Below the pieces are notes generated by a model. That model made no database searches. It worked only from the letters and a program-made list of their open reading frames with translations, and was not told where the DNA came from. A DNA stretch of 64,000 nucleotides from an uncultured Eubacteriales bacterium (GTDB taxonomy: Bacteria; Bacillota; Sulfobacillia; DYIH01; JBBIPI01), in assembly GCA_964467515.1 (NCBI GenBank), contig CAYXQP010000001.1, positions 1,509 through 65,508 of the forward strand, given 5' to 3'. This document shows, one piece after another, positions 14,957 to 32,715 of the stretch; positions within the stretch are counted from its first letter, which is position 1; each line of letters begins with the position of its first letter. Made by a program: the position numbers and the translations under genes.

Positions 14957-15865
14957 CTATACCGGGCCGGCGCGCCTCATCCTCCCCTCCAGGGCGGTCG
15001 CCGCCGCCCCGGCGACAGCCGTCACCATGGCCACCCGGCCCATGGGGAACACGTGGAGGCCGCGGGCGAAGGAGGCCACCGCCCGGGCCAGCTCGCAGGC
15101 CGCCTCCAGCCCGGCCGCCTCGCCTCCCGCCTGGAGCCGGCGCAAAAGTCGGTCGGGCACGCGCACCCCGGGGATGGCCGCGACCCGCCGCGCGAACTCC
15201 AGGTCCCGCAGGGGCATGATCCCGTAAAGGATGGGGACCGCGAGCCCGGCGGCCCGGCAACGCTCCTCGAAGCGGGCGGCGTCCTCGGCCTCGAACACGG
15301 GCTGGGTCTGGACGAAGACCCCTCCCGCCTCCACCTTGGCCGCCAGCCGTTCCACCTCCCGCTCCAGGTCCGCGGCCGTCGGGTTGGCGGCCACGGCCAC
15401 CAGGAGGGAGGTGGGCGAATCGAGGGTCGCGCGGCCGGCGCGCCCGGCGTTCAACTCGGCGATGAGCCGCACCAGCCCGGGGGTGTCCAGCTCGTACACC
15501 CCTCGGGCCTCGGGGCAGTTGCCCGCCTGGGGCGGGTCTCCGTGGAGCACGAGGACGTGGCGGACCCCGAGAGCGTGAGCGCCCAGCAGGTCGGCCCGCA
15601 GACCGATCTGGTTGCGATCACGGCAGGTGACGTGGACTATGGTCTCGACGCCGGTCTCTCTCTGCACGAGGTGGGCGGCCGCGATGGCTCCCATGCGCAC
15701 GTTGGCCAGCGGGCAGTCGGTCACGTTGACGGCGTCCACCAGCGCGCCGAGCTGCCGGGCTCGCTCGAGGAAGCGCCCCGCGTCGGTGCCCCGCGGCGGA
15801 TCCAGCTCCGCCGTCAGGACGAAGGAGCCGGCTGCCAGTTTCTCGGCCAGGGTCAGCGCCAACAC
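14957..15865 (-). CDS. metF: 5,10-methylenetetrahydrofolate reductase MetF
   Basis: The C-terminal about 300 aa of ORF 14957..17773 read ...SFVLTAELDPPRG...VNVTDCPLANVRMG...VHVTCRDRN...VLVLHGDPP, a MetF (MTHFR) sequence. The start is GTG at 15865 or TTG at 15862; the upstream in-frame sequence is shadow. Confidence 0.85.
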   Translation of the reverse strand: MLALTLAEKLAAGSFVLTAELDPPRGTDAGRFLERARQLGALVDAVNVTDCPLANVRMGAIAAAHLVQRETGVETIVHVTCRDRNQIGLRADLLGAHALGVRHVLVLHGDPPQAGNCPEARGVYELDTPGLVRLIAELNAGRAGRATLDSPTSLLVAVAANPTAADLEREVERLAAKVEAGGVFVQTQPVFEAEDAARFEERCRAAGLAVPILYGIMPLRDLEFARRVAAIPGVRVPDRLLRRLQAGGEAAGLEAACELARAVASFARGLHVFPMGRVAMVTAVAGAAATALEGRMRRAGPV

Positions 15866-15949
15866 CTCCGCCGCCGGCGGGGCCGGCGCCCGCGCCGGGC
15901 GGTGCCATCGGCTCTGGAGTAACCGTAACCACCATGATACAACGAAACC

Positions 15950-17896
15950 ATGCAGACCCGCAGGAAAGCCAACACCGTGACGGTTCGTTGGACGAGGCGG
16001 GAACTGGATCTTCCTGCCGACGAGCCCCTCCATCGCTCCCTGGCCGCCGCCGGTGTGCCCGTGGAAAGCCCCTGCGGCGGATTGGGCCGGTGCGGGCGCT
16101 GTCGCGTCCTGTTCCTGACGGGAGCGCCGGCTCCCTCCGAGGCCGACCGCCGCCTGCTGAGCGGTGCCGACCTGGAGGCCGGCTGGCGGCTGTCCTGCCG
16201 CCACCTGCCGCGCGCCGGGGCGGAGATCACCCTGACCCCCTCCTGGACGCCAGCGGCCCTCGCGGCAGCCGGGCCCGGCGGGGCCACCCTGCCGGCAGCC
16301 GTCAAGGGGGCCACGGAGGCGGGGGCCGTCACCGTGCGCTCGCCCCTGGTGGAGAGCCGCACCGTGGTCCTGCCGCGGCCGGCGGCGGAGGAGACGGGCG
16401 GCGACGTGGAGAGGCTGGCCGCCGCCCTGGGTCGGCCCCTCCGGGCGGGTCTCCCCGCCCTGAGGGAAGGCGCCCTCCACCTGCGGCGCGGCGGCGAACT
16501 CCGCTGCGTCCTCGGCGACGGCGAGCTCCTGGCCGTCGCAGGGGCTGCCGGAGCGGGGCAGGCCCTGGGTCTTTGCCTCGACCTGGGCACCACGACCCTG
16601 GCCGGCTACCTCCTGGCCCTGGACACCGGGCACCAGCTGGCGGGCGCCGCCATCCCCAATCCCCAGGCTTCTCTGGGCGCCGACATCATGACGCGCCTCG
16701 GCCACGCCCTGCGGGGAAACGGCCTGGCCGAGCTGCGCCTGCTCCTGGTGGAGGGGGCCAACCGCCTCCTGGAGAGCCTCTGCCGCCAGGCCGAGTCCGA
16801 ACCCGACGCGGTGTGGGCCGTCACGGCCGTCGGCAACAGCGCCATGCACCACCTCTTCCTGGGTCTCCCGGTGGACGGCCTGGCCGCGGCCCCCTATGCG
16901 CCCCTTTCCACGGCGCCCCGCCTGGAGAGGGCCGCCGACCTGGGGCTGGCGTGCCACCCGCGGGGTCTCGTCTACCTGCCGCCCCTCCTGGGCGGCTTCG
17001 CGGGGAGCGACATGGCCGCCGTGCTCCTGGCGACCCGCCCCTGGGAAGCCGAGCGGCCCGTCCTGGTCCTGGACCTGGGCACCAACGGCGAGGTGCTGCT
17101 GGGCCACGAGGGGCGAGTGCTCACCGCCAGCGCCCCGGCCGGACCGGCCTTCGAAGGGGCCGGGCTCTCGGCCGGCCTGAGAGCCGGGCCGGGCGCCATC
17201 ACGGCCGTGGACCTGGCGACGGTGGAGGGGGAGGTGGACCTGACGGTGGAGGTGGTCGGCGGCGGGCCGCCGCAGGGCATCTGCGGGTCGGGCGCCGTGG
17301 ACGCGGCGGCCGCCCTCCTGCGGGCCGGGCTGGTGGACGCCTCCGGCCGGATCGCCGTGGACCGGCTGTCCTCCCTTCCCGCCCGCCTGGCGGCGCGGAT
17401 CAGGCCGGAGGGAGCCGGCGCCGTGACCCTGGCCCACGGTCCCGGCGGACCCGTGCTGCTCACCCAGGGCGACCTGCGCCAGCTCCAGCTGGCCAAGGCG
17501 GCCGTGCGGGCGGCCTGCGACCTGCTCCTGGCCGAGGGAGGCCTGGAGCCGGACGACCTGGGGGCGGTCCTGCTGGCCGGCGCCTTCGGCAACTACCTTC
17601 GCCCGGAGAGCGCCCTCGCCATCGGGCTCCTGCCGCCGGTGCCTCCCGAGCGCGTCGTCCCGGTGGGCAACGCGGCGGGAGTGGGGGCGATGCTCTGCCT
17701 CCTGGACGGGCTGGCCCGGAGCGAGCTGGAGGAGCGGGCGCGGCGGGTCCGGCATGTGCCCCTGGCCACTCACCCCGACTTTCAGGACCGGTTCCTGGCC
17801 GCCACTTGGTTCCCGTCGCCGGGAGGTCCCCCGGCCCCGGCCGACCGGCCGGCCCGGCCCGCCGCGGCGGGAACAACCGGTTCCAAGGGGGGGTGA
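15950..17896 (+). CDS. 2Fe-2S ferredoxin plus ASKHA-ATPase protein of the RACo / DUF4445 family (corrinoid reductive activase-like)
   Basis: 648 aa. The N-terminal plant-type ferredoxin cysteines (CGGLGRCGRCRV...SCRH) are followed by an ASKHA-fold region (LCLDLGTTTLAGYLL...VLDLGTNGEV). Divergent from metF. Confidence 0.75.
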   Translation: MQTRRKANTVTVRWTRRELDLPADEPLHRSLAAAGVPVESPCGGLGRCGRCRVLFLTGAPAPSEADRRLLSGADLEAGWRLSCRHLPRAGAEITLTPSWTPAALAAAGPGGATLPAAVKGATEAGAVTVRSPLVESRTVVLPRPAAEETGGDVERLAAALGRPLRAGLPALREGALHLRRGGELRCVLGDGELLAVAGAAGAGQALGLCLDLGTTTLAGYLLALDTGHQLAGAAIPNPQASLGADIMTRLGHALRGNGLAELRLLLVEGANRLLESLCRQAESEPDAVWAVTAVGNSAMHHLFLGLPVDGLAAAPYAPLSTAPRLERAADLGLACHPRGLVYLPPLLGGFAGSDMAAVLLATRPWEAERPVLVLDLGTNGEVLLGHEGRVLTASAPAGPAFEGAGLSAGLRAGPGAITAVDLATVEGEVDLTVEVVGGGPPQGICGSGAVDAAAALLRAGLVDASGRIAVDRLSSLPARLAARIRPEGAGAVTLAHGPGGPVLLTQGDLRQLQLAKAAVRAACDLLLAEGGLEPDDLGAVLLAGAFGNYLRPESALAIGLLPPVPPERVVPVGNAAGVGAMLCLLDGLARSELEERARRVRHVPLATHPDFQDRFLAATWFPSPGGPPAPADRPARPAAAGTTGSKGG

Positions 17897-19194
17897 CAGC
17901 CCTGGAGAAGGTCTTCTGCGACCCGGTGCACGACTTCGTGGTGGTCCGCAACCGCGTGGCCCTGGCCCTGGTGGACACCCCCGAGTTCCAGCGTCTGCGG
18001 CGCATAAGGCAGCTGGGCCTGGCCGCCGGCACCTACCCCGGCGCCGAACACACCCGCTTCGCCCATTCCCTGGGGGCCATGCACGTCCTGGAGCGGGTGC
18101 GCCGCCGCCTGGAGACCGACGCCGGGGCGGCCGACTGGGAGGCGTTGACCCTGGCCGCCCTTCTCCACGACGTGGGGCACGGTCCCTTCTCGCACCTGTG
18201 GGAGCGTCTCACCGGCACGCCCCACGAGTTCTGGACGAAGGCGGTGGTGGCCGGGGACACGGAGGTCAACCGGACTCTCCGCCGCGCCGAGGCGGACCTG
18301 CCCGAGCGCGTCCTGGGCCTGCTGGACGGCCGTCCCAAGGCTCGTCTGTCGGATCTCCTCGCGGGGCAGCTGGACGTGGACCGCATGGACTACCTCCTCC
18401 GCGACGCCCTCTTCACCGGCGCCGGTTACGGCCGCTTCGACCTGGAGCGCCTGGTCCACTCCCTGGTCGCCGCCGGCGGGGGGGTGGCCGTTCACCACCG
18501 CGGGCTGGCCAACGTCGAGGAGTACCTGCTGGCCCGCTACTTCATGTACTGGCGCGTCTACTTCCACAAGACGGTGCGAGCCGCCGAGGTCACCCTCGCC
18601 ACGGCCTGGCGCCGCGCCCGCCACCTCTTCCGCAAGGGAGACCCGCCCGAGACGCCGCCCCCCCTGCGCCCCTTCCTGGCGGGGGAACCCGCCACCCTCG
18701 GGCGGTTCCTGGCCGTGGACGACGGCGACCTGGTGGTGGCCCTGAAAGCCTGGGCTTCCTCCGGCGACCCCGTCCTGCGGGAACTGGCCGGCAGGGTGGT
18801 GGAGAGACGCTACCTCAAGCCGGCCCTGCCGCAGCCCCTCCCGGAGCTTCCCGAGGATGCCCTGCGGGCGGTGGCGCAAACGGTGGCCAGGGCCGGCTAC
18901 GACCCCGAGTGGCACCTGGCCGCCGACAGCACGGCCATGATCCCCTACGACGTGTACGATCCCGGCGCTGGCACGGCGGAGCCGGCGTCGCCCATCCTGA
19001 TCCTGGGGCCCGACGGCGGATTCCGGGAGGTGAGCGACGTCTCGCCGCTGGTGGACCGGCTGGCCAGGCTTCCCCGTCCGGCGCTGCAGGTGTACGTGCC
19101 GGCCGAGGCGCGCGAGGCTGCGGCCCGGGTGCTGGGCCCGTTGGCCCGCGAGGCGTGGAAGCAGCCGGCTCGGCCGCCCACCGCCGCGCGGTGA
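17893..19194 (+). CDS. HD domain phosphohydrolase (dGTPase-like, COG1078)
   Basis: A GTG start at 17893 overlaps the upstream stop (GTGA). The HD motif reads HSLGAMHV...LLHDVGHGPFSH...DRMDYLLRD. Confidence 0.75.
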   Translation: MTALEKVFCDPVHDFVVVRNRVALALVDTPEFQRLRRIRQLGLAAGTYPGAEHTRFAHSLGAMHVLERVRRRLETDAGAADWEALTLAALLHDVGHGPFSHLWERLTGTPHEFWTKAVVAGDTEVNRTLRRAEADLPERVLGLLDGRPKARLSDLLAGQLDVDRMDYLLRDALFTGAGYGRFDLERLVHSLVAAGGGVAVHHRGLANVEEYLLARYFMYWRVYFHKTVRAAEVTLATAWRRARHLFRKGDPPETPPPLRPFLAGEPATLGRFLAVDDGDLVVALKAWASSGDPVLRELAGRVVERRYLKPALPQPLPELPEDALRAVAQTVARAGYDPEWHLAADSTAMIPYDVYDPGAGTAEPASPILILGPDGGFREVSDVSPLVDRLARLPRPALQVYVPAEAREAAARVLGPLAREAWKQPARPPTAAR

Positions 19195-19260
19195 CGCGTC
19201 GCCGTTGAGGGGCTCCCCCGCCTCTGCTATGCTGGAGCCGTTCCGGGGGGAAGGCGGCCG

Positions 19261-20886
19261 TTGGACCAGGCCCGCGGCGAGCGGATCTACCTCTACGACA
19301 CCACCCTGCGCGACGGCGCGCAGCAGGCCGGCCTCGCCTTTTCGCTCAAGGACAAGCTGCGCATCCTGGAGCGGCTGGATGAGTTCGGCCTGGACTACGT
19401 GGAGGGCGGCTGGCCCGGCTCCAACCCCAAGGACCTGGAATTCTTCCGCCAGGCGCGCAAGCTCCGCCTGCGCACCCGCCTCGTGGCCTTCGGCGCCACG
19501 CGGCGCCCCGGCGCCACCGTCGGCCGCGACCGGCTCGTGCGGGCGCTGCTGGAGGCCGGCACGCCGGCCGTCACCGTGTTCGGCAAGAGCTGGGACCTGC
19601 ACGTGCAGCAGGCGCTGCAGACCACTCCCGCGGAGAACCTGGCCATGATCGAGGAAACCGTTTCCCACCTCAAGGCCCACGTGGCGGAGGTCATCTACGA
19701 CGCCGAGCACTTCTTCGACGGCTATCGCTCCAACCCCCGCTACGCCCTGGAAACCCTGCGGGCCGCGGTGCGCGGCGGGGCCGACTGGATCGTGCTCTGC
19801 GACACCAACGGCGGCGCCCTGCCCCACCAGGTGGCCGCGGCGGTGGCCGCCGTGCGCGCCGCCGTGGACTGCCGGCTGGGCATCCACACCCACAACGACG
19901 CCGGGGTGGCCGTGGCCAACGCCTTGGCGGCCGTTCTCGGGGGCGCCCGCCAGGTCCAGGGCACCATCAACGGCTACGGGGAGCGGTGCGGCAACGCCAA
20001 CCTGTGCACCATTATCCCCAACCTGCGGCTCAAGATGGGGCTCCAGTGCCTGCCGGGCACGGACCTGCGGGGGCTGACGGCTCTCTCCCACTTCGTGAGC
20101 GAGGTGGCCAACCGCACCCACGACCCCTCCTATCCCTACGTGGGCGCCAACGCCTTCGCTCACAAGGGGGGCGTCCACGTGAGCGCCGTGCTCCGGGACA
20201 GCCACACGTACGAGCACGTGGATCCGGAGGAGGTGGGCAACAGCCGGCGGGTGGTGGTCTCGGAGCTGGCGGGCCGATCCAACCTCCTGTGGCTGGCCAG
20301 GGAGAGAGAGGTTCACCTGGACAAGGACGACCCCGCCACGGCGGCCATCCTGGACCGGGTCAAGGAGCTGGAGTACCAGGGCTTCCAGTTCGAGGCGGCC
20401 GAGGCTTCCCTGGAGCTGCTGCTCCGCAAGGCGAGGGGCGCGTTCCCCCAATTCTTCACCCTGGAGGGCTTCCGCGTCCACGTGCACAAGCAGCCCGGCC
20501 AGCCGGCCGCCGCCGAGGCCACGGTCAAGGTGCGGGTGGGAGACCGCACCCTCCACACGGCGGCCGAGGGGGACGGCCCCGTCAACGCCCTGGACCGGGC
20601 TCTCCGTAAGGCCCTGGAGGGGGTCTACCCGGCCCTCCGCCGGATGCACCTGGTCGATTACAAGGTGCGCGTCCTGGATGAAAAGGAGGGCACGGGCAGC
20701 AAGGTGCGCGTCCTCATCGAGACGGCCGGCGAGGACGGGTCCTGGAGCACCATCGGCGTCTCGGAGAACATCATTGAGGCCAGCTGGCAGGCCCTGGTGG
20801 ACAGCATCGAGTACGGCCTCTGGCGGCACGAGGCGGCCCGGGCGCGCGAGGAACGGGCGCGGGCCGGCGCGGCCGCGGGCCAGTGA
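19261..20886 (+). CDS. cimA: (R)-citramalate synthase / 2-isopropylmalate synthase family, with a LeuA dimer domain
   Basis: 541 aa with a pyruvate carboxyltransferase domain (YLYDTTLRDGAQ...HTHNDAGVAVANALAAV) and a C-terminal LeuA-dimer domain. The TTG start follows GGGGGGAAGG. Confidence 0.8.
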   Translation: MDQARGERIYLYDTTLRDGAQQAGLAFSLKDKLRILERLDEFGLDYVEGGWPGSNPKDLEFFRQARKLRLRTRLVAFGATRRPGATVGRDRLVRALLEAGTPAVTVFGKSWDLHVQQALQTTPAENLAMIEETVSHLKAHVAEVIYDAEHFFDGYRSNPRYALETLRAAVRGGADWIVLCDTNGGALPHQVAAAVAAVRAAVDCRLGIHTHNDAGVAVANALAAVLGGARQVQGTINGYGERCGNANLCTIIPNLRLKMGLQCLPGTDLRGLTALSHFVSEVANRTHDPSYPYVGANAFAHKGGVHVSAVLRDSHTYEHVDPEEVGNSRRVVVSELAGRSNLLWLAREREVHLDKDDPATAAILDRVKELEYQGFQFEAAEASLELLLRKARGAFPQFFTLEGFRVHVHKQPGQPAAAEATVKVRVGDRTLHTAAEGDGPVNALDRALRKALEGVYPALRRMHLVDYKVRVLDEKEGTGSKVRVLIETAGEDGSWSTIGVSENIIEASWQALVDSIEYGLWRHEAARAREERARAGAAAGQ

Positions 20887-20892
20887 AAGCCC

Positions 20893-21174
20893 GTGGTGGT
20901 GGGAGCCTGCCGCCTGGTGCTCCACCTGCCCCAGGCCCGCACCCTCAAGGATAAGCGCTCCGTCGTCAAGAGCGCCCTGGACCAGCTCCACGGCCGCTTC
21001 CGGCTCGCCGTCGCCGAGGTGGGGTCCCTCGATGCGGTGCAGGTGGCCGAACTGGGACTGGCCGCCGTCGGCAGCCAGGAGAGGACGGTGCGCCAGGTCA
21101 TGGACGCCGCGGCGCGGTTCATCGAGGAGCGGTTCCCCGTGGAGCTGGGAAGCTGCGAGACCTTCTTTGCCTGA
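20893..21174 (+). CDS. DUF503 (YlxP-like) protein
   Basis: 93 aa; ...CRLVLHLPQARTLKDKRSVVKS... is typical of DUF503. Confidence 0.6.
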   Translation: MVVGACRLVLHLPQARTLKDKRSVVKSALDQLHGRFRLAVAEVGSLDAVQVAELGLAAVGSQERTVRQVMDAAARFIEERFPVELGSCETFFA

Positions 21175-21234
21175 GATATACCGCCGCCCGGAAGGGGCAC
21201 AGCCCAGGGGGACCCGCCGGGCGGCCGCCCCGCC

Positions 21235-21978
21235 TCATCTCAGGTAGCGCATGGGGTTGACGGCGCGACCGCCCACCCTCACCTCGAAGTGGACGTGGGG
21301 TCCCGTGCAGCGGCCGGAGCAACCCATCAGGGCTATCAGCTCGCCGCGCTCCACCCGCTGGCCGGCGGAGACGAGGACCCGCGAGTTGTGCCCGTAGAGG
21401 GTCTCGCTGCCGTCCCCGTGGCGGATGACGACGACGCGCCCGTAACCGTAGTACCAGGCGGCCAAGGTGACGACACCCGGGGCCACGGCCCTCACCTCGC
21501 TGCCGTAGCGCCCGGCTATGTCCACCCCCCGGTGGAACTCCCCCCGCCGCCAGCCGTAACGGGACGATATGTAGCCCCGCGCCGGCCAGGGCACGGATCC
21601 CCCCAGGTCCGCCCGCGGCAGGGCACCGGCCGCGTCGACGCCGACCGCCGCCCGCGGACGCCCGCCGGCCGGCTGACGCCTGGCGGGCCTCGCCTCCTCG
21701 GGAGCCGGCACCTCCTCCGGGGAGAGAAACTGAGTCTCCTCGGGCGGGACGATGATGGCGTCGGCGTCGGGCAGAGGCTCCTCCTCTGGCTCGCCGGTGA
21801 GGCCGGGAGCCTCGGCGGCCGCGGCCGGGACGGCCGGAAGGGCAGCCAGGGACGCGCGCGCCAGGGGCCGCTCCGCCAGGAAGGAGAGTTGCTTCGGGAG
21901 AAAGGGGGCATCGTGGAACAGGACCGATACCATGAAGATCAACGATAGCCAGCGGCGGGGGCTCAGCCTGCCAGGCAA
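21235..21978 (-). CDS. M23 family metallopeptidase (LytM-type peptidoglycan endopeptidase)
   Basis: 247 aa with an N-terminal transmembrane segment, a low-complexity linker, and a C-terminal M23 catalytic core (HRGVDIAGRYGSEVRAVAPGVV...YGHNSRV...HVHFEV). Confidence 0.8.
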   Translation of the reverse strand: MPGRLSPRRWLSLIFMVSVLFHDAPFLPKQLSFLAERPLARASLAALPAVPAAAAEAPGLTGEPEEEPLPDADAIIVPPEETQFLSPEEVPAPEEARPARRQPAGGRPRAAVGVDAAGALPRADLGGSVPWPARGYISSRYGWRRGEFHRGVDIAGRYGSEVRAVAPGVVTLAAWYYGYGRVVVIRHGDGSETLYGHNSRVLVSAGQRVERGELIALMGCSGRCTGPHVHFEVRVGGRAVNPMRYLR

Positions 21979-22142
21979 GGAGCCACACTCCTTCTGGAAG
22001 CCTCCGGGGTTAGCTGACGGGTTCGGCAGAGAAGGTGAGCCTACCGCCTGGCGGCGGATTCACCCCACAACCTGGGTCCCCCGTACCCGCGGGTGATGGC
22101 CCACGGGATTCGGCTCTTTTTTTGGTGGGCCTGCCGGCCGTT

Positions 22143-22204
22143 TGTGGTCACACTCAGCTTGTGACCACGTTCACGAACCTACCCCAAACCGGACAGGCTG
22201 TCAA
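22143..22204 (-). promoter_or_regulatory. Sigma-A-like promoter (TTGACA, 17 nt, TAGGTT) with a 9-bp inverted-repeat operator directed toward the M23 peptidase gene
   Basis: The minus strand reads TTGACA-gcctgtccggtttgggg-TAGGTT-cgtgaac-GTGGTCACA-agctgag-TGTGACCAC. The -35 is at 22199..22204, the -10 at 22176..22181, and the inverted repeat at 22143..22168. A Spo0A-box-like TTGTCGAG lies about 25 nt upstream of the -35. Confidence 0.35.
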
Positions 22205-22299
22205 GACCAACTTTCCCTCCCGCTCGACAACTTGTGTAGCCATCCTCCCACGCGCTCCGCCGGGAGGCGCGGGAGAGGCTTTCCCGCGCGCCAACACCA

Positions 22300-22324
22300 G
22301 GGGCGCAACCCCGGGTTGCGCCCC
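22300..22324 (-). terminator. GC-rich hairpin (11-bp stem GGGGCGCAACC/GGTTGCGCCCC) about 30 nt downstream of the sod stop; candidate intrinsic terminator
   Basis: A perfect 11-bp stem with a CCG loop, followed on the minus strand by UGGUGUUGG. It has no clean U-tract, which is common in high-GC genomes. Confidence 0.4.
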
Positions 22325-22354
22325 GGCAGTGGCGGAGCGTAGGGAGATGCCCCC

Positions 22355-22936
22355 TCAGCCGCGGGCCGCCAGCTGGCCCCGGTGGGCGAGCAGGTTTAGC
22401 CTCTTCACGCGGGCGTTGACCGTTTCCCAGTTCACGTTCTTCATGAAGCTCTCGATGTAGGCCTTGCGCGCCGTGCCGTAGTCGAGGAAGTAGGCGTGCT
22501 CGTAGACGTCCAGGATGAGGAGCGGCGACGCGTCCCACACCCCGTCCGAGTGGATATCCGACAGGTAGTTGTGGAGCCTGTGATCGGTCCAGTCGAAGGC
22601 CAGCACCACCCAGCCCCGCGCCGCTATGCCCAGCCCCTTGAACTCCTGCTCCCAGGCCTCATAGGAGCCGAAGTCCTCCTCGATGAGCCGGGCGATCTCG
22701 CCCTGGGGCCTGCCACCGCCGCCGCCCAGGTTTTCGAAGTAGGCCTCGTGCAGGCGGATGGCGTTGGTGGCGAAGACCTCCTCCCGCTTGAGCTCCCGGA
22801 TGAGACTGTAGGTGGCGTTGGCCTCCCCGGGGTTGGCCGTCTCCAGCTTGCTCTCGATCTCGTTGAGCTTGTTGACGTAACCCTTGTACAGAACGTCGTG
22901 GTGCTCGTCGATCTGCCTCTGGGTGAAACCCTCCAT
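22355..22936 (-). CDS. sodA: Fe/Mn-family superoxide dismutase (divergent or short N-terminus)
   Basis: ...QIDEHHDVLYKGYVNKL... corresponds to the HHxKHH region, and the C-terminal DVYEHAYFLDY is the Fe/Mn SOD metal-ligand motif. The ATG at 22936 is the likely start; the ORF extends in frame to 22972. Confidence 0.8.
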   Translation of the reverse strand: MEGFTQRQIDEHHDVLYKGYVNKLNEIESKLETANPGEANATYSLIRELKREEVFATNAIRLHEAYFENLGGGGGRPQGEIARLIEEDFGSYEAWEQEFKGLGIAARGWVVLAFDWTDHRLHNYLSDIHSDGVWDASPLLILDVYEHAYFLDYGTARKAYIESFMKNVNWETVNARVKRLNLLAHRGQLAARG

Positions 22937-23146
22937 GGCTCCCGGCTTGACCTCTCTTGCCTGCCTGGGCAACCCCCATCCCCCCTCCTCTTCCCGGCGG
23001 CCGTCCCGCCGCCTCGCGTCGGCGGGATTGTAGCATCCGCCGGCCGGCTAGTAAAGCTCTGACTTTCTAAACGATGCGGCCGCAAAAGGGCCGGTCCCGT
23101 CGCTCCCCTTGCCCGCCCGCCGGTGCCGGCACGGCGGCATGGCGGT

Positions 23147-24286
23147 CTAATAGCGCAACAGAGCGGCCACCTCGGGGACCTCGGCCGCCTGCTCCTCCCC
23201 GCGGGTGAAGGCTATCTCGGCCCCCTGCTCGCAGGCGGCGTCCACCAGGTACTGGGTCGCCTCCCGGGCCTGCCCCCTCGTCCCGCCCAGGCACCTGAGG
23301 CAGCGCCACGGCTCCCCCTCCGGCGTCACGAAGCCGCAGGCGCACTCGTAACCGCGGAGCCTGACGCCCGTGCGCAGGATCAACTGGCGCACGGCGCCGC
23401 GTTGGAGGGCCGCGCTCACGTCGTGAGGGCCCAGGGCGGCCTGCCCGCGGGCCGCCAGCTCCGCCGCCTGCCGCATCAACGCGGCTCCCCTCTCCTGGCG
23501 GTGCCGTGCCACCAGGTCCAGCACGATGGCCTCCATCTCGGCCGCGGACACGTCGGCGGCCGCGTCCACCTCGCCCAAAAGGCGCCTGGCCCAGTCCTGG
23601 GGCAGGGCCTGGCGGGCGAGGCTCCGCACCTCCGCCGGGCCGGCCAGGACGAGCCACTCGGCGGCGGCTCCGCCGGCCACGTCGGCCAGGGCCCCCACCG
23701 CCTGGCGCACATGGCGCCCCAGATGGTCCAGGATGTGGCGGTCTATCCGGCGCTCCTCCAGGTTGGCCCAGCCCCCTTCCCGCACGTTTTGCGGCACCTC
23801 GTTGCAGAAGCCGCCTCTCTCCACGAGGGCGCCGTCGTGGAGGTGGAGGAAGCGCGCCGTCTGGCGACCCACCGCCAGCACGAGGCCCGGCGGCAGCAAC
23901 CAGGACCGCTCCAGGAGGGGAAGCCGGTACGTGACGCGGTCGGCCACCGCCAGGGGCCGCACGTGGCCGTCCACGGGTAGGACCGACCAGAACCCGTCCG
24001 CCGCGCACGAGAAGAAGGCGGCTCCCTTGGCCGCAAAACCGCGCTGCGTCCGCAGCCAAGCGCCCATCCTCTCCACGTCCTCCCGCAGGGACTGGCGCGC
24101 CCGCCGCGGCAGCGACCCGCCGACCAGCGCCACCTCCTGGCCCAGGGTCCGGAACACGTTGAGATAACCGCGCGCCTGGTCACGGGCCCGATCCAGCGGC
24201 AGGTAGAGGCTCGTCACCAGCAATCCCTCGGGGGCACGGTACCGCTCCAGGGCCTCGAACTCCCCCATCTCCGCCACCACGGCCAT
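23147..24286 (-). CDS. eRF1/Dom34(Pelota)-like protein with a C-terminal Cys4 zinc ribbon (baeRF-type release-factor homologue); function unknown
   Basis: About 380 aa. The N-terminal ...GLLVTSLYLPLD... matches the first strand of the eRF1/Pelota N-domain, followed by a central domain and a C-terminal CACGFVTPEGEPWRCLRCLGG. The ATG at 24286 or 24268 is the likely start. Confidence 0.5.
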   Translation of the reverse strand: MAVVAEMGEFEALERYRAPEGLLVTSLYLPLDRARDQARGYLNVFRTLGQEVALVGGSLPRRARQSLREDVERMGAWLRTQRGFAAKGAAFFSCAADGFWSVLPVDGHVRPLAVADRVTYRLPLLERSWLLPPGLVLAVGRQTARFLHLHDGALVERGGFCNEVPQNVREGGWANLEERRIDRHILDHLGRHVRQAVGALADVAGGAAAEWLVLAGPAEVRSLARQALPQDWARRLLGEVDAAADVSAAEMEAIVLDLVARHRQERGAALMRQAAELAARGQAALGPHDVSAALQRGAVRQLILRTGVRLRGYECACGFVTPEGEPWRCLRCLGGTRGQAREATQYLVDAACEQGAEIAFTRGEEQAAEVPEVAALLRY

Positions 24287-24528
24287 CCCCCCTGCCCACC
24301 CTCCGCCGGCACGCAAGCGTACGCTGCCGAACCGCCACCCTTTCCGCCGGGAAAACATTCTCCCCCCGCGGACCGGTTTCCTCCCACCGGCCGGTCGGTT
24401 TCACCGCAGGGGGAAGGCGGTTGTCTCGCGCAGGCCGCGGGTCACCGGTCCTCGGTCCAAGTCCTGGCCGGGAAGGCCCCGCCGACCTGCGCTAAAATGG
24501 GCTGGACCGCCGGAGGAAGGAGGCCGCC

Positions 24529-27075
24529 GTGCCGTCTTTTCGCTCCCTGCTCGGCAAGCGGGTCCTGGTTTGGGACGGCGCCATGGGGACCATGCTCCAG
24601 GCGGCCGGCCTGCCCGCCGGCGGGTGCCCCGAGATCTGGAACCTGGAACGTCCCGACGCCGTCGCGGCCGTGCATCGCGCTTACGTGGAGGCCGGCGCCC
24701 TCATCCTGGAGACCAACACCTTCGGCGGCAACCGGATCAAGCTGGCTCACTACCGCCTGGCCCACCGCGTGCAGGAGATCAACGGCCGCGCCGTGGCCTT
24801 GGCCAGGGAGGCGGCGGGCGACAGGGCCCTGGTGGCGGCCTCCCTGGGCCCCACCGGCCTCTTCGTGGCCCCGCTGGGCGAGATGAGCTTCGAGGAGGCC
24901 TACGACGTCTTCGCCGAACAGGCGGCCGCCTGCGCCGCGGCCGGGGCCGATCTCTTCATCGTGGAGACCATGGCCGACCTGGGCGAGGCCAGGGCCGCCG
25001 TCCTGGCGGCTAGGGCGACCGGACTGCCGGTGGTGGCCCAGCTCACCTTCGCCGAGGGCGGGCGCACCTTCACCGGCACCGATCCCGAGACGGCGGTGCT
25101 GGTCCTCTCCTCGGCCGGGGCCGAAGTGGTGGGGGCCAACTGCTCCGTGGGCCCGGCCGAACTGGTGCAGGTGGTGCGGGCCATGGCGGCGGTGGGGCGG
25201 GTCCCCGTCAGCGTCCAGCCCAACGCCGGCCTGCCCCGGCTGGTGGGCGGCACGGAGACGGTCTTTCCCCTGGGACCGGAGGAGTTCGGCGCCTGGGGAC
25301 CGCGGCTGGTGGAGGCGGGCGCCAGCCTCGTGGGCGGCTGCTGCGGCACCGGACCCGAGCACATCCGCCGGCTGGCGCAGGCCGTCGCCGGCCTGACGCC
25401 TCCCTGGCCGGGCGCGCGGCACCCCGCGCTCACGGGTCTGGCCTCGCGCACCGGCACCTTCTGGTTTCGGGACGAACACCTCCCCCTCGTCATCGGCGAG
25501 CGCATCAACCCGACGGGCCGCAAGAAGCTCCAGGAGGACGTGGCCGAGGGGCGCTTCCTCCTGGTCCGTGAGGAAGCCCGCCGGCAGGCGGCGGCGGGCG
25601 CCCAGGCCCTGGACGTCAACGTGGGAGTGCCCGGCGTGGACGAGGCGGCCGCCATGCGCCGGGCCGTCCTGGCGGTGCAGGAGGCGGCCACCCTCCCCCT
25701 GTGCGTGGATTCCTCGACGCCGGCGGCCCTGGAGGCAGGACTGGCGGCCACCGTGGGGAAACCCCTGGTCAACTCGGCCTCGGGCGAGGCGGGCCGCCTC
25801 GAGGCGGTGCTGCCCCTGGCCCGTCGCTTCGGGGCCGCCCTCATCTTCCTGGCCCTGGACGACGACGGCATCCCCGCCACCGCCGCCGGGCGCCTGGCCG
25901 TGGCGGAGCGCCTGGTGCGGGCGGCGGAGGAGGCCGGGTTCCCCCGGGAGGACGTCTTCCTGGACTGCCTGGCCATGGCCGTGGGGGCCGACCAAGCCTC
26001 GGCCCTGGAGACCCTGCGGACCATCGGCCTGGTGAGGGAGCGGCTGGGCGTCCGCACCGTCCTCGGGCTCAGCAACATCTCCTTCGGCATGCCCAACCGG
26101 CCTCTCCTCAACGCCACCTTCCTGGCCATGGCCCTGGCCGCCGGGCTGGACGCCGTCATCATGAACCCCCTCGACCAGGCGGCCATGGACACGGTGCGGG
26201 CGGCGCGGGTCCTCCTGCGGCGGGACGCCGACGCGCGCCAGTACGTGGCGGTCATGGCGGCCCGCCCCGAGACGCCCCCGGCCGCGGCTCGGGTGGAGGC
26301 CGCGGCCGCGGAGCCGACCGCCGCGGCACCGGTCGAGGACCGGCCCCCGGCGGTTACCACCGCCGCGGGGGAGCCGGCCGAGGAGCGGCCCCCCGCGGGG
26401 GCGGAGCGGGATCCCCTCGACCAGGCCCTCTACCGGGCCGTCCTGGAGGGCAACCCGCAGGGCATCGTGCCCTTGGTGGAACAAGCCCTGGCCGCCGGCC
26501 GGGACCCCCTGGCCATGCTGAACGGCGTCCTCATCCCGGCCATCGAGGAGGTGGGCCGGCTCTTCGGCCAGGGCATCTACTTCCTGCCCCAGCTCATCCT
26601 CTCGGCCAACGCCATGAAGGCCGCCTTCGAGCGGCTCAAGCCCGAGCTGGCCCGGCGCCAGGCCGCCGAGCCGCTGGCCACCATCGTCCTAGCCACGGTG
26701 GAGGGGGACATCCACGACATCGGCAAGAACATCTGCGCCGTCCTCCTGGAGAACCACGGCTTCCGCGTGGTGGACCTGGGCCGGGACGTCCCCGCGGAGC
26801 GCATCCTGGAGGCCGCGCGCCGCGAGGGGGCGGACATCGTAGGCCTCTCCGCCCTCATGACCACCACCATGCCCCGCATGAAGGAGGTGGTGGATCTCTT
26901 CCGGCGCGAGGGGCTGGCCATCCCCGTCATCATCGGGGGTGCCGCCACCGACAAGGCCTTCGCCGAGGAGATCGGCGCCGCCGGCCACGGCGCCGACGCC
27001 GCCGAGGCGGTCCAGGTGGCGCGGCGCCTCCTCGGCCTCGTCTTTCCCGAGACCCGGACCGTGACCCCCTCCTAG
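24529..27075 (+). CDS. metH: Cobalamin-dependent methionine synthase MetH lacking the C-terminal AdoMet reactivation domain
   Basis: 848 aa made of a homocysteine S-methyltransferase domain, a pterin-binding domain, and a B12 cap plus B12-binding domain (DIHDIGKNI...GLSALMTTT). The GTG start follows GGAGGAAGGAGG. Confidence 0.9.
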   Translation: MPSFRSLLGKRVLVWDGAMGTMLQAAGLPAGGCPEIWNLERPDAVAAVHRAYVEAGALILETNTFGGNRIKLAHYRLAHRVQEINGRAVALAREAAGDRALVAASLGPTGLFVAPLGEMSFEEAYDVFAEQAAACAAAGADLFIVETMADLGEARAAVLAARATGLPVVAQLTFAEGGRTFTGTDPETAVLVLSSAGAEVVGANCSVGPAELVQVVRAMAAVGRVPVSVQPNAGLPRLVGGTETVFPLGPEEFGAWGPRLVEAGASLVGGCCGTGPEHIRRLAQAVAGLTPPWPGARHPALTGLASRTGTFWFRDEHLPLVIGERINPTGRKKLQEDVAEGRFLLVREEARRQAAAGAQALDVNVGVPGVDEAAAMRRAVLAVQEAATLPLCVDSSTPAALEAGLAATVGKPLVNSASGEAGRLEAVLPLARRFGAALIFLALDDDGIPATAAGRLAVAERLVRAAEEAGFPREDVFLDCLAMAVGADQASALETLRTIGLVRERLGVRTVLGLSNISFGMPNRPLLNATFLAMALAAGLDAVIMNPLDQAAMDTVRAARVLLRRDADARQYVAVMAARPETPPAAARVEAAAAEPTAAAPVEDRPPAVTTAAGEPAEERPPAGAERDPLDQALYRAVLEGNPQGIVPLVEQALAAGRDPLAMLNGVLIPAIEEVGRLFGQGIYFLPQLILSANAMKAAFERLKPELARRQAAEPLATIVLATVEGDIHDIGKNICAVLLENHGFRVVDLGRDVPAERILEAARREGADIVGLSALMTTTMPRMKEVVDLFRREGLAIPVIIGGAATDKAFAEEIGAAGHGADAAEAVQVARRLLGLVFPETRTVTPS

Positions 27076-31232: not shown

Positions 31233-32566
31233 TCCTCCGACAGGTCCAGCTCGCGGCGCAGGGCCTCCACGTCCACGAAGGGACGACCGGCCCGCCTCTT
31301 CTTCTCCTCCATGTTTTCCATGACCCGCAGGAGCTCGCGCAGGCGGGCCCTCCCGTCCCGCGTCTGGCAGGCCTGGCGGGGGGTCAAGCCGCCCAGCACG
31401 GGGGCCGGCTCGTCCACCCAGTCGTGGGAGAAGGGTGGCAGGGCGGACTCTCCTTCACCGAGCCCACCTTTGCCCGCCGTGGCGGGAAGCGCCAGGGAGA
31501 CGCTCTCGAACTCGTCTACCATGTGCCGGGCGGTCGCGGCGAGCACCTCCCCGAGAAGGGTCTTGCCGCGCTCCAGGCGCTCCCGCGACAGGCACTCCAG
31601 CCGGAGTCGCCGTGAGCGGAGAACCAGGGTCCCCAACACCAGCCTGCCCCCCGGCGGGCTTTCCTCCGCGGGGGCGAACCATCTCCAGACACCCTCGCCC
31701 ACCGCCTCCATGTCCGATCGCAGGGCCAGCGCCCGCACCACCTCCTCCGGATCGCCGACCCCGTACCAGGCCCTGGAGAGAAGGCACGCCTCGCCGCTCA
31801 GGGTGCGGAAGCGAGCGGGGCCGAGGGCCTGGAGGCCGCCCACCAAGAGCCGGTGTATCTCGTGGGCCCTGCCGCGGAAGTAATCCTCCCACCCGGCCGC
31901 AGGCCGCCGGCCGCGGAAGCGGGCCAGCCCCTCGGTGAGGCACCGGACGACGGACGCCTTCCACCAGCGGGGCAAGACGAGACCGGCGACGGACAGCCCC
32001 ACCTCCCCGTGGACGGGCAACAGGCGGGTCAGGACCAGGTCGAAACGGTGCAGGTTCCTGGCCGCCACCCTGTCCCAGCACCGCTGCCTGGCGCCCGTGC
32101 ACACATCCTCGAGCAAGAGCTCGCCCTCGTCCGACCGGAGCAGGACCTCGTAAAGCCCCAAGCGGCTCGAGGCCCAAGCGGCGAGGACGGCCCGTTCCTC
32201 CCCGTCCAGGTCCCGGCTCTGGGCCAGGTACCTCTCCAGGACCGTCCGTCCCCTGCCCCCCGGGCGGTAGTCGAAGACGAGCCAATCGAAGAAACGCCCC
32301 ATGCTCCCCTCGTCGTCGGCCAGGGGCAGAGCGTCCCCTCCCCCCCAGAAGGCGTCGAAGGCTCTGGCCAGCGTCTCGTCACCGACGCGGCGGCGGGCGA
32401 AGAGGAAAAGGTGATCCATGAGCCGCTCGGCCAACCGCTGGGACCTATGACGGGAAAGGGGGAGCACCTTGCAACCGACCTCCACGCCATCCACCTCCAC
32501 GGCGGCCACCCGGCCGCAAGGGAACGGGGACGTTTTTCGACAGAGAAGCGGCCACTCCTCTCGCAC
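31226..32566 (-). CDS. Hypothetical protein with a C-terminal helical domain resembling DUF2384 (the toxin-binding domain of Xre/MbcA/ParS antitoxins); translationally coupled to ppc
   Basis: 446 aa. The C-terminal ...PVLGGLTPRQACQTRDGRARLRELLRVMEN... follows the DUF2384 pattern P.LGG.TP.ELL.T..G...V..LL.R...G. Its stop at 31226 lies 1 nt from the ppc ATG at 31232. Confidence 0.6.
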   Translation of the reverse strand: MREEWPLLCRKTSPFPCGRVAAVEVDGVEVGCKVLPLSRHRSQRLAERLMDHLFLFARRRVGDETLARAFDAFWGGGDALPLADDEGSMGRFFDWLVFDYRPGGRGRTVLERYLAQSRDLDGEERAVLAAWASSRLGLYEVLLRSDEGELLLEDVCTGARQRCWDRVAARNLHRFDLVLTRLLPVHGEVGLSVAGLVLPRWWKASVVRCLTEGLARFRGRRPAAGWEDYFRGRAHEIHRLLVGGLQALGPARFRTLSGEACLLSRAWYGVGDPEEVVRALALRSDMEAVGEGVWRWFAPAEESPPGGRLVLGTLVLRSRRLRLECLSRERLERGKTLLGEVLAATARHMVDEFESVSLALPATAGKGGLGEGESALPPFSHDWVDEPAPVLGGLTPRQACQTRDGRARLRELLRVMENMEEKKRRAGRPFVDVEALRRELDLSEEW

Positions 32567-32715
32567 CTTTGACAGAAACCGCCCTTCCGCATCTCGAACC
32601 GCCGGGGTGGCGAGGCGCCCCCAGATTATGCGGTGCCCGAGGGGTGCGGTGCGACAGCCATCAACGAGGGCGCCCGCCGCTCCGGCCGGCGGCCCGCTGC
32701 GGCCGCGCGGTGCCG

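What the first reader, a model, noticed from the sequence alone, without database searches (positions are those of the whole stretch)
14957..27075. Activation-domain-less MetH with a RACo-type ferredoxin-ASKHA activase encoded beside metF
The metH gene (24529..27075) stops after the B12-binding domain. The AdoMet-dependent reactivation domain of canonical MetH is absent. About 7 kb away, divergent from metF, is a 648-aa protein (15950..17896). It has an N-terminal plant-type 2Fe-2S ferredoxin and an ASKHA ATPase body, the architecture of RACo, the ATP-dependent reductive activator of corrinoid proteins (DUF4445).

A RACo-type activase genomically linked to the methionine-synthesis genes suggests ATP-driven reductive reactivation of Co(II)-MetH, in place of the flavodoxin/AdoMet route. 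My recollection is that this has been characterised mainly for Wood-Ljungdahl and methanogen methyltransferases; that was not verified here. An HD-domain hydrolase is translationally coupled (GTGA) to the activase.
Basis: partly seen in the sequence, partly recalled or inferred. Interest (0 to 1): 0.5.

Follow-up and report, generated by a model that had tools for sequence, protein, structure and literature searches.

The report
ATP-driven repair enzyme for short MetH
A B12-dependent methionine synthase that lacks its usual self-repair domain sits near a gene for an ATP-powered iron-sulfur "activase" that most likely re-reduces its oxidised B12; the link is real, but it was already proposed from genetics in 2018 and is built into an annotation tool.

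Summary
metH (24529-27075) encodes a four-domain, 848-aa MetH with no AdoMet activation domain. The gene at 15950-17896 encodes a full-length RACo-type activase (2Fe-2S ferredoxin, linker, middle and ASKHA domains). It is divergent from metF (14957-15865) and overlaps an HD gene by GTGA.

Comparative genomics supports a functional link between MetH and the activase. In eight of nine related loci that contain the activase gene, it lies immediately downstream of a core metH, often with a 1-4 nt overlap. One of these is the cultured Caldinitratiruptor microaerophilus. The 6.6-kb separation here is a secondary rearrangement.

The idea is not new. Price et al. 2018 inferred it from mutant fitness data, and GapMind accepts PF14574 as a MetH B12-reactivation step.

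- The Symbiobacteriales sister clade has both the activase and a TM0269-type stand-alone AdoMet activation subunit in one operon. "In place of the AdoMet route" is therefore unproven. No such subunit was found in this window or in six loci of its own clade.
- The HD protein is a homologue of the EF1143/SAMHD1 family of dNTP triphosphohydrolases and is probably unrelated.

Verdict: a new member of a known kind, of modest interest.

The parts
14957..15865 (-). metF, methylenetetrahydrofolate reductase. It is 302 aa with a GTG start and makes the CH3-THF that MetH uses. It is divergent from the activase gene.
   Evidence: Pfam MTHFR scores 140.6 bits, E 8.6e-41. The best NCBIfam match is the MTHFR half of the YitJ-type bifunctional model PRK08645.
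15866..15949 (.). 84-bp divergent intergenic region between metF and the activase gene. It contains a locally AT-rich patch, and no recognised regulatory RNA or consensus promoter was found.
   Evidence: Sequence. No Rfam hit at E<=1. No sigma-70 consensus site.
15950..17896 (+). RACo/RACE-type ATP-dependent reductive activase of corrinoid proteins, 648 aa. This is the proposed MetH cob(II)alamin reductase.
   Evidence: Pfam RACo_C_ter 229.6 bits, Raco_middle 139.3, Fer2 31.3, RACo_linker 22.1. PDB 3ZYY matches at E 9e-76 over the full length. Orthologues lie directly downstream of metH.
15992..16210 (+). N-terminal plant-type [2Fe-2S] ferredoxin domain of the activase (aa 15-87). The fourth cluster ligand, Cys83, lies within it.
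   Evidence: Pfam PF00111. Cys42, Cys48, Cys51 and Cys83 follow the pattern C-x5-C-x2-C...C, and all four are invariant or nearly invariant in 27 homologues.
17060..17818 (+). ASKHA ATPase domain of the activase (aa 371-623). The first phosphate-binding motif, DLGTTT, lies upstream at aa 211-216 in the middle region.
   Evidence: Pfam PF14574. DLGTTT 211-216, DLGTNGE 375-381 and AGAFGNY 543-549 are present and fall on invariant or nearly invariant columns.
17893..19194 (+). HD-domain protein of 433 aa whose start overlaps the activase stop (GTGA). It is a homologue of the EF1143/SAMHD1 dNTP triphosphohydrolase family. It is probably co-transcribed but functionally unrelated.
   Evidence: Pfam HD plus HD_assoc_2. 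PDB 2O6I/3IRH/4LRL matches at E 2.8e-78 over residues 4-408. The overlap is shown. The gene lies downstream of the activase gene in all six clade loci that hold it and in none of the four Symbiobacteriales loci.
24529..27075 (+). metH, a four-domain ("core") cobalamin-dependent methionine synthase of 848 aa with no AdoMet activation domain.
   Evidence: Pfam domains: Hcy S-methyltransferase aa 13-286, pterin-binding aa 324-545, B12 cap aa 632-704, B12-binding aa 718-828. There is no PF02965. TIGR02082 positions 2-858 of 1182 are matched. Zn cysteines 205, 271 and 272 and DIHDIG 727-732 are present.
26422..27012 (+). B12 cap and B12-binding (Rossmann) module of MetH, the presumed docking target of the activase.
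   Evidence: Pfam PF02607 and PF02310. This is the only B12-binding domain detectable in the 64-kb window.

Best explanation
The 648-aa protein is a RACo/RACE-type reductive activase dedicated to the four-domain MetH of this organism.

**Proposed mechanism.**
1. MetH cycles its cobalamin between methyl-Co(III) and Co(I).
2. Occasional oxidation traps it as inactive Co(II).
3. The activase then docks on the B12 module.
4. ATP binding and hydrolysis in its ASKHA domain makes the uphill electron transfer from its [2Fe-2S] cluster to Co(II) possible.
5. The resulting Co(I) is re-methylated. The simplest route is CH3-THF (from MetF) at MetH's own pterin domain, which would need no AdoMet.

**Shown here.**
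- The domain architectures and cofactor and ATP motifs of both proteins.
- The absence of an activation domain in MetH and in the window.
- A recurrent, often translationally coupled metH-activase gene order in relatives.

**Inferred.**
- The physical interaction between the two proteins.
- The ATP dependence.
- The identity of the methyl donor after reduction.
- The source of electrons for the [2Fe-2S] cluster.

The present arrangement (metF divergent from the activase gene, metH 6.6 kb away) is a rearranged remnant of an ancestral metH-activase operon.
For: **Architecture.**
- The activase matches Fer2, RACo_linker, Raco_middle and RACo_C_ter.
- It aligns over its full length with the RACo structure 3ZYY at E 9e-76.
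- The four cluster cysteines and the ASKHA motifs are conserved.
- MetH has all four catalytic modules with its Zn and DxHxxG motifs but no PF02965.
- None of its 120 closest relatives (797-933 aa) has PF02965 either.

**Linkage.**
- metH is immediately upstream of the orthologous activase gene in L084 (4-nt overlap), L090, L091 (1-nt overlap) and L086.
- The same holds in the Symbiobacteriales loci L085, L087, L026 and L088. L088 is the complete genome of Caldinitratiruptor microaerophilus.
- In L085 the operon continues with a Cys/Met PLP enzyme, PAPS reductase and ATP sulfurylase.
- A neighbour-joining tree places the window's protein inside this metH-linked clade.

**Exclusion of other clients.**
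- The window has no other B12-binding or RACo-like gene.
- Its other genes are those of a respiratory heterotroph (Ccm, Rieske, SOD, AhpC, TCA enzymes), with no acs/CFeSP genes.

**Literature.**
- Mutants in ferredoxin+DUF4445 genes are methionine auxotrophs or are cofit with a MetH that lacks PF02965, in Phaeobacter and Desulfovibrio (PMC5764234).
- GapMind lists PF14574 as a MetH B12-reactivation family (10.1101/741918).
- The RACE-type mechanism is reviewed in PMC7317905 and PMC6739815.
Against: - In this window metH and the activase gene are not adjacent or co-oriented in one operon. Five genes unrelated to methionine synthesis, plus the HD gene, separate them.
- No paper in the searched library reports biochemical evidence that any RACo-type protein reduces MetH-bound cobalamin.
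- The sister clade keeps a TM0269-type AdoMet activation subunit next to the activase gene. The activase alone may therefore not be sufficient for reactivation.
- Only 64 kb of the genome was visible. Another corrinoid client or an unlinked activation subunit cannot be excluded.
Confidence: 0.8

Rival explanations
1. Two-component repair. The activase only replaces flavodoxin or ferredoxin as the (ATP-boosted) electron donor. An unlinked TM0269-type activation subunit encoded elsewhere in this genome still supplies AdoMet-dependent methylation, as the operon structure of the sister clade suggests.
For: - In L085, L087, L088 and L026 the order is metF, 240-aa protein, metH, activase.
- The 240-aa protein matches T. 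maritima TM0269 (PDB 1J6R, E 2.6e-5).
- Some sources call family members [quoted passage not shown], and some members hit PF02965.
- More distant activase loci also hold this protein next to MetH-like pieces (L031, L046, L054, L075).
- Price et al. noted that RamA-like proteins co-occur with full-length MetH in Sinorhizobium meliloti.
Against: - A 120-sequence HMM run at maximum sensitivity finds no such ORF in the 64-kb window or in six loci of the window's own clade. It finds one in all four Symbiobacteriales loci.
- By matching contig lengths, none of the eight closest MetH relatives (66-100% identity, the window's own protein included) shares a contig with a TM0269-like hit, whereas at least 20 of the 56-60% group do. 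This is an indirect proxy.
Confidence: 0.3
2. The activase serves a different corrinoid protein encoded outside the window, such as a methyltransferase or demethylase system or CFeSP. On this view its position near metF and metH is only inherited synteny.
For: - Characterised members of the family act on CFeSP, O-demethylase corrinoid proteins and methylamine corrinoid proteins.
- Many homologues at 33-40% identity lie beside separate B12-binding and pterin-binding proteins that need not be methionine synthase parts.
- In roseobacters one corrinoid protein serves both betaine demethylation and methionine synthesis (PMC12478193).
Against: - Every close relative with visible context is coupled to a complete core metH, not to stand-alone corrinoid proteins.
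- The AcsV model is missed by a wide margin (310 against 800 bits), as is RamA (108 against 500).
- The window shows aerobic-type respiration genes and no C1-methylotrophy genes.
Confidence: 0.07
3. The activase, the HD protein and (in relatives) the 4HBT thioesterase form one functional unit in which the HD hydrolase takes part in cofactor or nucleotide handling for B12 repair.
For: - The GTGA overlap in the window.
- An HD gene lies downstream of the activase gene in all six clade loci that hold it (window, L003, L084, L086, L090, L091).
- In L090 the string is metH, activase, 4HBT, HD, cobU.
Against: - The HD protein is a close homologue of the EF1143/SAMHD1 family of dNTP triphosphohydrolases (E 2.8e-78).
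- It is absent from all four Symbiobacteriales metH-activase operons.
- It is just as consistently followed downstream by leuA and DUF503, though not always directly, so this looks like block synteny.
Confidence: 0.08

Closest known systems
RACo of Carboxydothermus hydrogenoformans (PDB 3ZYY; complex with CoFeSP, 4C1N)
   Same: Same four-part architecture and length (631 against 648 aa), colinear over residues 16-623 at E 9e-76. It has a plant-type 2Fe-2S domain and an ASKHA ATPase with conserved phosphate motifs. The presumed chemistry is the same: an ATP-dependent one-electron reduction of Co(II) to Co(I).
   Different: The client is CoFeSP of the Wood-Ljungdahl pathway, not MetH. The window's protein scores only 310 bits against the AcsV model, whose cut-off is 800. 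Its genomic partner is a methionine synthase in an apparently respiratory organism.
RamA-like ferredoxin+DUF4445 proteins of Phaeobacter inhibens (PGA1_c15200) and Desulfovibrio (DvMF_1398, Dde_2711), from Price et al. 2018 and the GapMind B12-reactivation step
   Same: Same proposed role: reactivation of B12 for a methionine synthase that lacks PF02965. The family is the same (PF14574). In D. vulgaris the partner is also a single-chain MetH without the activation domain.
   Different: Those assignments rest on mutant fitness, whereas this one rests on gene order. Phaeobacter has a three-part MetH plus a DUF1638 protein. DvMF_1398 has two DUF4445 domains. A Paracoccaceae homologue (L046) is about 36% identical to the window's protein. 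Here the evidence includes direct translational coupling of metH and the activase gene in relatives, which the parts of those papers I read do not report.
Thermotoga maritima TM0268/TM0269 (core MetH plus a stand-alone activation protein; PDB 1J6R)
   Same: MetH ends after the B12-binding domain, and reactivation is handed to a separate gene product. The title of Huang et al. 2007, as cited in PMC7857596, says TM0269 is required. Details of that paper come from my own knowledge, because the paper was not held.
   Different: TM0269 is an AdoMet-domain homologue, not an ATPase. A TM0269 homologue is present in the sister clade but was not found in this window or its clade loci.
RamA of Methanosarcina (TIGR04270) and the activating enzymes of O-demethylases (Acetobacterium dehalogenans AE)
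   Same: ASKHA-type, ATP-dependent Co(II) reduction of corrinoid methyltransferase proteins.
   Different: RamA is matched only weakly (108 bits against a cut-off of 500, middle region only). From my own knowledge, RamA carries C-terminal 4Fe-4S motifs rather than an N-terminal 2Fe-2S domain. The clients are methylamine or O-demethylase corrinoid proteins.
Escherichia coli MetH with flavodoxin and AdoMet
   Same: Same catalytic modules and the same inactivation problem, Co(I) oxidised to Co(II).
   Different: E. coli repairs itself by reductive methylation, using a built-in fifth domain (PF02965), flavodoxin as the electron donor and AdoMet as the methyl donor. That domain is missing here, and an ATPase is encoded instead.

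Membership tests
RACo/RACE-type reductive activases of corrinoid enzymes (Pfam PF00111+PF17650+PF17651+PF14574) | N-terminal plant-type [2Fe-2S] ferredoxin domain with four cysteine ligands | tested here: met
   PF00111 scores 31.3 bits against a cut-off of 21. Cys42, Cys48, Cys51 and Cys83 are invariant or nearly invariant in 27 homologues.
RACo/RACE-type reductive activases of corrinoid enzymes (Pfam PF00111+PF17650+PF17651+PF14574) | Linker domain (PF17650) | tested here: inconclusive
   The score is 22.1 bits, below the 26.2 cut-off. However, the region aligns colinearly with 3ZYY.
RACo/RACE-type reductive activases of corrinoid enzymes (Pfam PF00111+PF17650+PF17651+PF14574) | RACo middle domain and C-terminal ASKHA ATPase domain with nucleotide-binding motifs | tested here: met
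   PF17651 scores 139.3 bits and PF14574 scores 229.6 bits. DLGTTT and DLGTNGE are conserved.
RACo/RACE-type reductive activases of corrinoid enzymes (Pfam PF00111+PF17650+PF17651+PF14574) | ATP-dependent reduction of protein-bound Co(II) corrinoid | not testable with these tools
   This needs a biochemical assay.
AcsV (CFeSP activator of the Wood-Ljungdahl cluster, NCBIfam NF040756) | Score at or above the curated cut-off, and location in an acs cluster | tested here: not met
   The score is 310.3 bits against a cut-off of 800. There are no acs/CFeSP genes in the window or in relatives' loci.
RamA (methylamine corrinoid protein activase, TIGR04270) | Score at or above the curated cut-off | tested here: not met
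   The score is 108.5 bits against a cut-off of 500, and only positions 2-220 of 534 are matched.
Cobalamin-dependent methionine synthase MetH (TIGR02082) | Homocysteine-binding domain with a Zn cysteine triad, pterin-binding domain, B12 cap, and B12-binding domain with DxHxxG | tested here: met
   Pfam hits. Cys205, Cys271, Cys272 and DIHDIG 727-732.
Cobalamin-dependent methionine synthase MetH (TIGR02082) | C-terminal AdoMet-binding activation domain (PF02965), and full-length score at or above the cut-off | tested here: not met
   There is no PF02965 hit. The score is 561.9 bits against a cut-off of 1010.85, and the model is matched only to position 858 of 1182. This is the four-domain "core MetH" variant, as in all 120 nearest relatives.
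RamA-like MetH reactivation system (Price et al. 2018; GapMind) | MetH without PF02965 together with a PF14574 protein in the same genome | tested here: met
   Both are present within 12 kb.
RamA-like MetH reactivation system (Price et al. 2018; GapMind) | Functional coupling, shown by cofitness or methionine auxotrophy, or by conserved gene linkage as a surrogate | tested here: met
   Only the surrogate was testable. metH lies directly upstream of the orthologous activase gene in eight related loci. The genetic phenotype could not be tested.
TM0269-type stand-alone MetH activation subunit | A roughly 215-245-aa homologue of TM0269/PF02965 encoded with metH | tested here: not met
   There is no hit in the window or in six loci of its clade with a 120-sequence HMM at maximum sensitivity. 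It is present in all four Symbiobacteriales loci. Absence across the whole genome could not be tested.

The most novel reading that the evidence does not exclude
This lineage has lost the TM0269-type AdoMet activation subunit that its Symbiobacteriales sister clade still encodes between metF and metH. On this reading it repairs MetH solely through the ATP-driven activase, and Co(I) is re-methylated by CH3-THF. The two clades would then be a natural pair of variants (ATPase alone, and ATPase plus AdoMet subunit). Comparing them would show whether ATP hydrolysis can fully replace AdoMet-coupled reductive methylation in an oxygen-exposed, respiratory bacterium.
Probability: 0.35. Interest if true: 0.5.

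Novelty: new member of a known kind. Interest (0 to 1): 0.3.

Why it matters
MetH reactivation by flavodoxin and AdoMet is the textbook model. Many bacteria, however, have a four-domain MetH with no activation domain. The ATPase route has been inferred genetically, but I found no biochemical demonstration of it for MetH.

The loci found here give tight, translationally coupled metH-activase pairs. Some are in cultured thermophiles (Caldinitratiruptor microaerophilus, and probably Symbiobacterium), which would suit such a test.

The co-occurrence of the activase with a TM0269-like subunit raises a precise question: does the ATPase replace only the electron donor, or the whole reductive methylation?

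For annotation, the Symbiobacteriales TM0269-like proteins are currently labelled "hypothetical" and escape both Pfam and NCBIfam.

Tried and rejected
- **Regulatory RNA.** I looked for a shared element (SAM or B12 riboswitch) upstream of metF, the activase gene or metH. There is none at Rfam gathering thresholds or at E<=1.
- **Promoters.** The sigma-70 consensus and terminator scan gave nothing in the metF-activase intergenic region.
- **HD protein as part of the system.** I rejected this as the leading view after the EF1143/SAMHD1 match and its absence from the Symbiobacteriales operons.
- **Activation domain in the window.** tblastn with two TM0269-like proteins, a 3-sequence HMM and a 120-sequence HMM with --max were all negative.
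- **Second corrinoid protein or second activase in the window.** tblastn found none.
- **Naming the organism.** Cluster look-ups returned no names. The taxon is therefore known only as a Bacillota lineage whose MetH is about 60% identical to those of Caldinitratiruptor and Symbiobacterium.
- **Huang et al. 2007 (TM0269).** The paper is not held in the library.
- **Structure prediction.** I judged it unnecessary given the full-length sequence match to 3ZYY.

Full report

Yes. The window is about 73% GC, so raw ORF lists are full of spurious frames. I selected genes by third-position GC and confirmed them with profile searches.

- **metH (24529-27075, +)** encodes 848 aa with four domains: homocysteine S-methyltransferase, pterin-binding, B12 cap and B12-binding. 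There is no PF02965 activation domain. It covers positions 2-858 of the 1182-position TIGR02082 model and scores 562 bits, below the full-length cut-off of 1011. The zinc cysteines (205, 271, 272) and the cobalamin-binding motif DIHDIG (727-732) are intact. The next gene is a convergent proline dehydrogenase, so no split-off activation domain follows.
- **The gene at 15950-17896 (+)** encodes 648 aa with Fer2, RACo_linker (sub-threshold), Raco_middle and RACo_C_ter. It aligns colinearly with the crystallised RACo of Carboxydothermus hydrogenoformans (3ZYY, E 9e-76, residues 16-623 against 12-621). It has the four 2Fe-2S cysteines and the ASKHA phosphate motifs, which are invariant or nearly invariant in 27 homologues.
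- **metF** lies at 14957-15865 (-), 84 bp from the activase gene and divergent from it.
- **The HD gene** starts at GTG 17893 and overlaps the activase stop codon (GTGA).

**2. What else is in the window?**

The window holds no other B12-binding domain and no second activase. The remaining genes are housekeeping:

- cell division (ftsQAZ);
- chemotaxis and motility (cheA, cheW, cheY, cheB, motAB);
- central metabolism (PEP carboxylase, succinyl-CoA ligase, fumarase, malate dehydrogenase);
- cofactor and stress genes (biotin synthase, SOD, AhpC);
- respiration (cytochrome c maturation CcmE/F, a Rieske protein).

There are no acs/CFeSP or methylotrophy genes. This looks like a respiratory heterotroph, not an acetogen. 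No SAM or B12 riboswitch precedes metF, the activase gene or metH.

**3. Evidence from relatives.**

The exact activase protein occurs in NCBI and in two Logan assemblies with the same neighbours. The nearest relative is 75% identical (GCA_900174565.1) and keeps the whole arrangement, including metH about 6.5 kb away.

*The next ring of relatives (47-53% activase identity, 66-80% MetH identity) is decisive.*

- In L084, L090, L091 and L086, a core metH of 836-874 aa lies immediately upstream of the activase gene, with a 4-nt overlap, a 32-nt gap, a 1-nt overlap and a gap of about 56 nt respectively. In L086 only the 3' end of metH is on the contig.
- Downstream come a 4HBT thioesterase, the HD gene, leuA and DUF503, with a few other genes interspersed in some loci.

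*The Symbiobacteriales sister clade shows the same coupling.*

- L085, L087, L026 and L088 carry the operon metF, 240-aa protein, metH, activase. L088 is the complete genome of the cultured Caldinitratiruptor microaerophilus.
- metH and the activase gene overlap by 4 nt in L085, L087 and L088.
- In L085 the operon continues with a Cys/Met PLP enzyme, PAPS reductase and ATP sulfurylase.

*Tree and gene order.*

- A neighbour-joining tree of 87 homologues places the window's protein with L003, then L084 and L086, then the Symbiobacteriales group. It therefore sits inside a clade whose other members are all coupled to metH. The tree has no bootstrap support values.
- The window's layout is thus a rearranged descendant of a metH-activase operon. 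metH moved next to the proline dehydrogenase and PEP carboxylase genes, the 4HBT gene was lost, and the metF-pxpA block came to lie divergent from the activase gene. All three genes remain within 12 kb.

**4. The AdoMet question.**

- The 240-aa protein of the Symbiobacteriales operons has no Pfam or NCBIfam hit.
- It matches T. maritima TM0269 (PDB 1J6R, E 2.6e-5), including the PGYGDW motif. TM0269 is the separate gene product required to reactivate the T. maritima core MetH (title cited in PMC7857596).
- Some sources call its family [quoted passage not shown], and some members hit PF02965.
- The sister clade therefore has both repair components.
- A 120-sequence HMM finds this protein in all four Symbiobacteriales loci. 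It finds none in the 64-kb window or in six loci of the window's clade.
- As an indirect proxy, none of the eight closest MetH sequences (66-100% identity, the window's own protein included) shares a contig length with a TM0269-like hit. More than twenty of the 56-60% group do.
- Whether this genome has an unlinked copy could not be determined.

**5. Mechanism.**

RACE-type ATPases reduce inactive Co(II) corrinoid proteins to Co(I), using an electron from a flexibly tethered [2Fe-2S] domain at the cost of about one ATP (PMC7317905). In the O-demethylase system, the activator plus ATP raises the Co(II)/Co(I) midpoint potential from about -530 to -250 mV (PMC6739815).

Applied here, the activase would dock on the MetH B12 module when the cofactor is Co(II) and reduce it. 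The Co(I) form would then re-enter the cycle by taking a methyl group from CH3-THF. E. coli instead pulls the unfavourable reduction by coupling it to AdoMet methylation in the fifth domain, with flavodoxin as the electron donor (PMC10293825).

The architecture and the gene linkage are shown. The interaction, the ATP dependence, the methyl donor and the upstream reductant are inferred.

**6. Comparison with what is known.**

They report the following:

- Mutants in a ferredoxin+DUF4445 gene in Phaeobacter inhibens are rescued by methionine.
- In Desulfovibrio vulgaris, a MetH lacking the activation domain is cofit (r = 0.92) with a DUF4445 protein.
- Ferguson et al. 2009 had already predicted such a role for bacterial RamA homologues.

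GapMind lists PF14574 beside PF02965 as the two families for MetH B12 reactivation. A 2025 PNAS paper treats RamA and DUF1638 as the recharging module of the roseobacter split methionine synthase and betaine demethylase (PMC12478193).

I found no paper with a biochemical demonstration for MetH.

By sequence the protein is a RACo-family member. It is neither AcsV (310 against 800 bits) nor RamA (108 against 500 bits).

**7. The HD gene.**

It encodes a close homologue of the Enterococcus faecalis HD-domain protein in PDB 2O6I/3IRH/4LRL (E 2.8e-78) and is related to SAMHD1. From my own knowledge, that protein is EF1143, a dNTP triphosphohydrolase.

It follows the activase gene in all six clade loci that hold it. 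It is just as regularly followed downstream by leuA and DUF503, and it is absent from the Symbiobacteriales operons. I read the GTGA overlap as the result of losing the intervening 4HBT gene, not as evidence of a shared function. In L090 a cobU gene follows the HD gene, which keeps a small doubt alive.

**8. Verdict.**

- The functional link is well supported by gene order. I put confidence that this activase serves MetH at about 0.8.
- Replacement of the AdoMet route is open.
- The concept is already published and already used in automated annotation, so this is a new member of a known kind.
- Its main value is practical. It points to tightly coupled pairs in cultured relatives for the biochemical test that is still missing, and it shows that the ATPase and a cryptic AdoMet subunit often occur together.

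Noticed in passing
window 21983-22125 (-): A full-length c-di-AMP (ydaO-type) riboswitch (90.7 bits, E 6e-20) lies directly upstream of the M23 peptidase gene (21235-21978, -). It is the only Rfam hit in the window.
   Followed up: no
L087:6820-7548, L085:6634-7365, L088:9232-9951, L026:6568-7284: The Symbiobacteriales proteins between metF and metH are TM0269 homologues, yet Pfam and NCBIfam miss them and sources label them hypothetical. They carry a conserved C-terminal three-cysteine motif (GCxxCxxxxCxYR), and the 214-aa TM0269 chain appears too short to contain it. This may be an extra metal site.
   Followed up: partly
L046:7304-7975, L031:9108-9944, L054:1522-2607, L075:11903-12631: Distant TM0269-like ORFs (E 1e-16 to 1e-23 against the profile; Pfam PF02965 matches only weak or absent) sit next to activase genes and split MetH-like pieces in Paracoccaceae, Rhodospirillales, Rhodothermaceae and Thermincola MAGs. 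Price et al. found no PF02965 in Phaeobacter, so a cryptic activation-subunit homologue may have been overlooked in such split systems.
   Followed up: partly
L027, L028, L032, L035, L036, L038, L045, L048, L049, L051, L065, L066, L070, L077 (about 8-10 kb in each locus): In Caldilineaceae, Actinomycetota, Dormiibacterota and others, activase homologues (35-39% identity) are preceded by separate B12-binding and pterin-binding genes. The pterin-binding genes are 42-49% identical to the MetH pterin domain. These look like split MetH or MtgC/D-like modules, and no homocysteine domain lies nearby.
   Followed up: no
L090:1112-8182: In GCA_020723785.1 the gene string is metH, activase, 4HBT thioesterase, HD, cobU (overlapping the HD stop). 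A B12-salvage gene thus sits in the same string.
   Followed up: no
window 15950-15979: The annotated ATG start of the activase gene has no obvious Shine-Dalgarno sequence. An in-frame GTG at 15977 is preceded by AGGA at 15962-15965, so the true N-terminus may be nine residues shorter.
   Followed up: no
window 23147-24358 (-): A 403-aa protein has baeRF family 10/2/3 domains and weak matches to mycobacterial ribosome hibernation factor models (MSMEG_1130 and Rv2629 families). It lies between SOD and metH and is conserved in relatives.
   Followed up: no
window 31229-32764 (-): A protein of about 512 aa next to PEP carboxylase has a weak Xre/MbcA/ParS antitoxin C-terminal domain. Its counterparts in L084 and L089 are recorded as DUF7986 plus that domain, and the pairing with the PEP carboxylase gene is conserved.
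   Followed up: no
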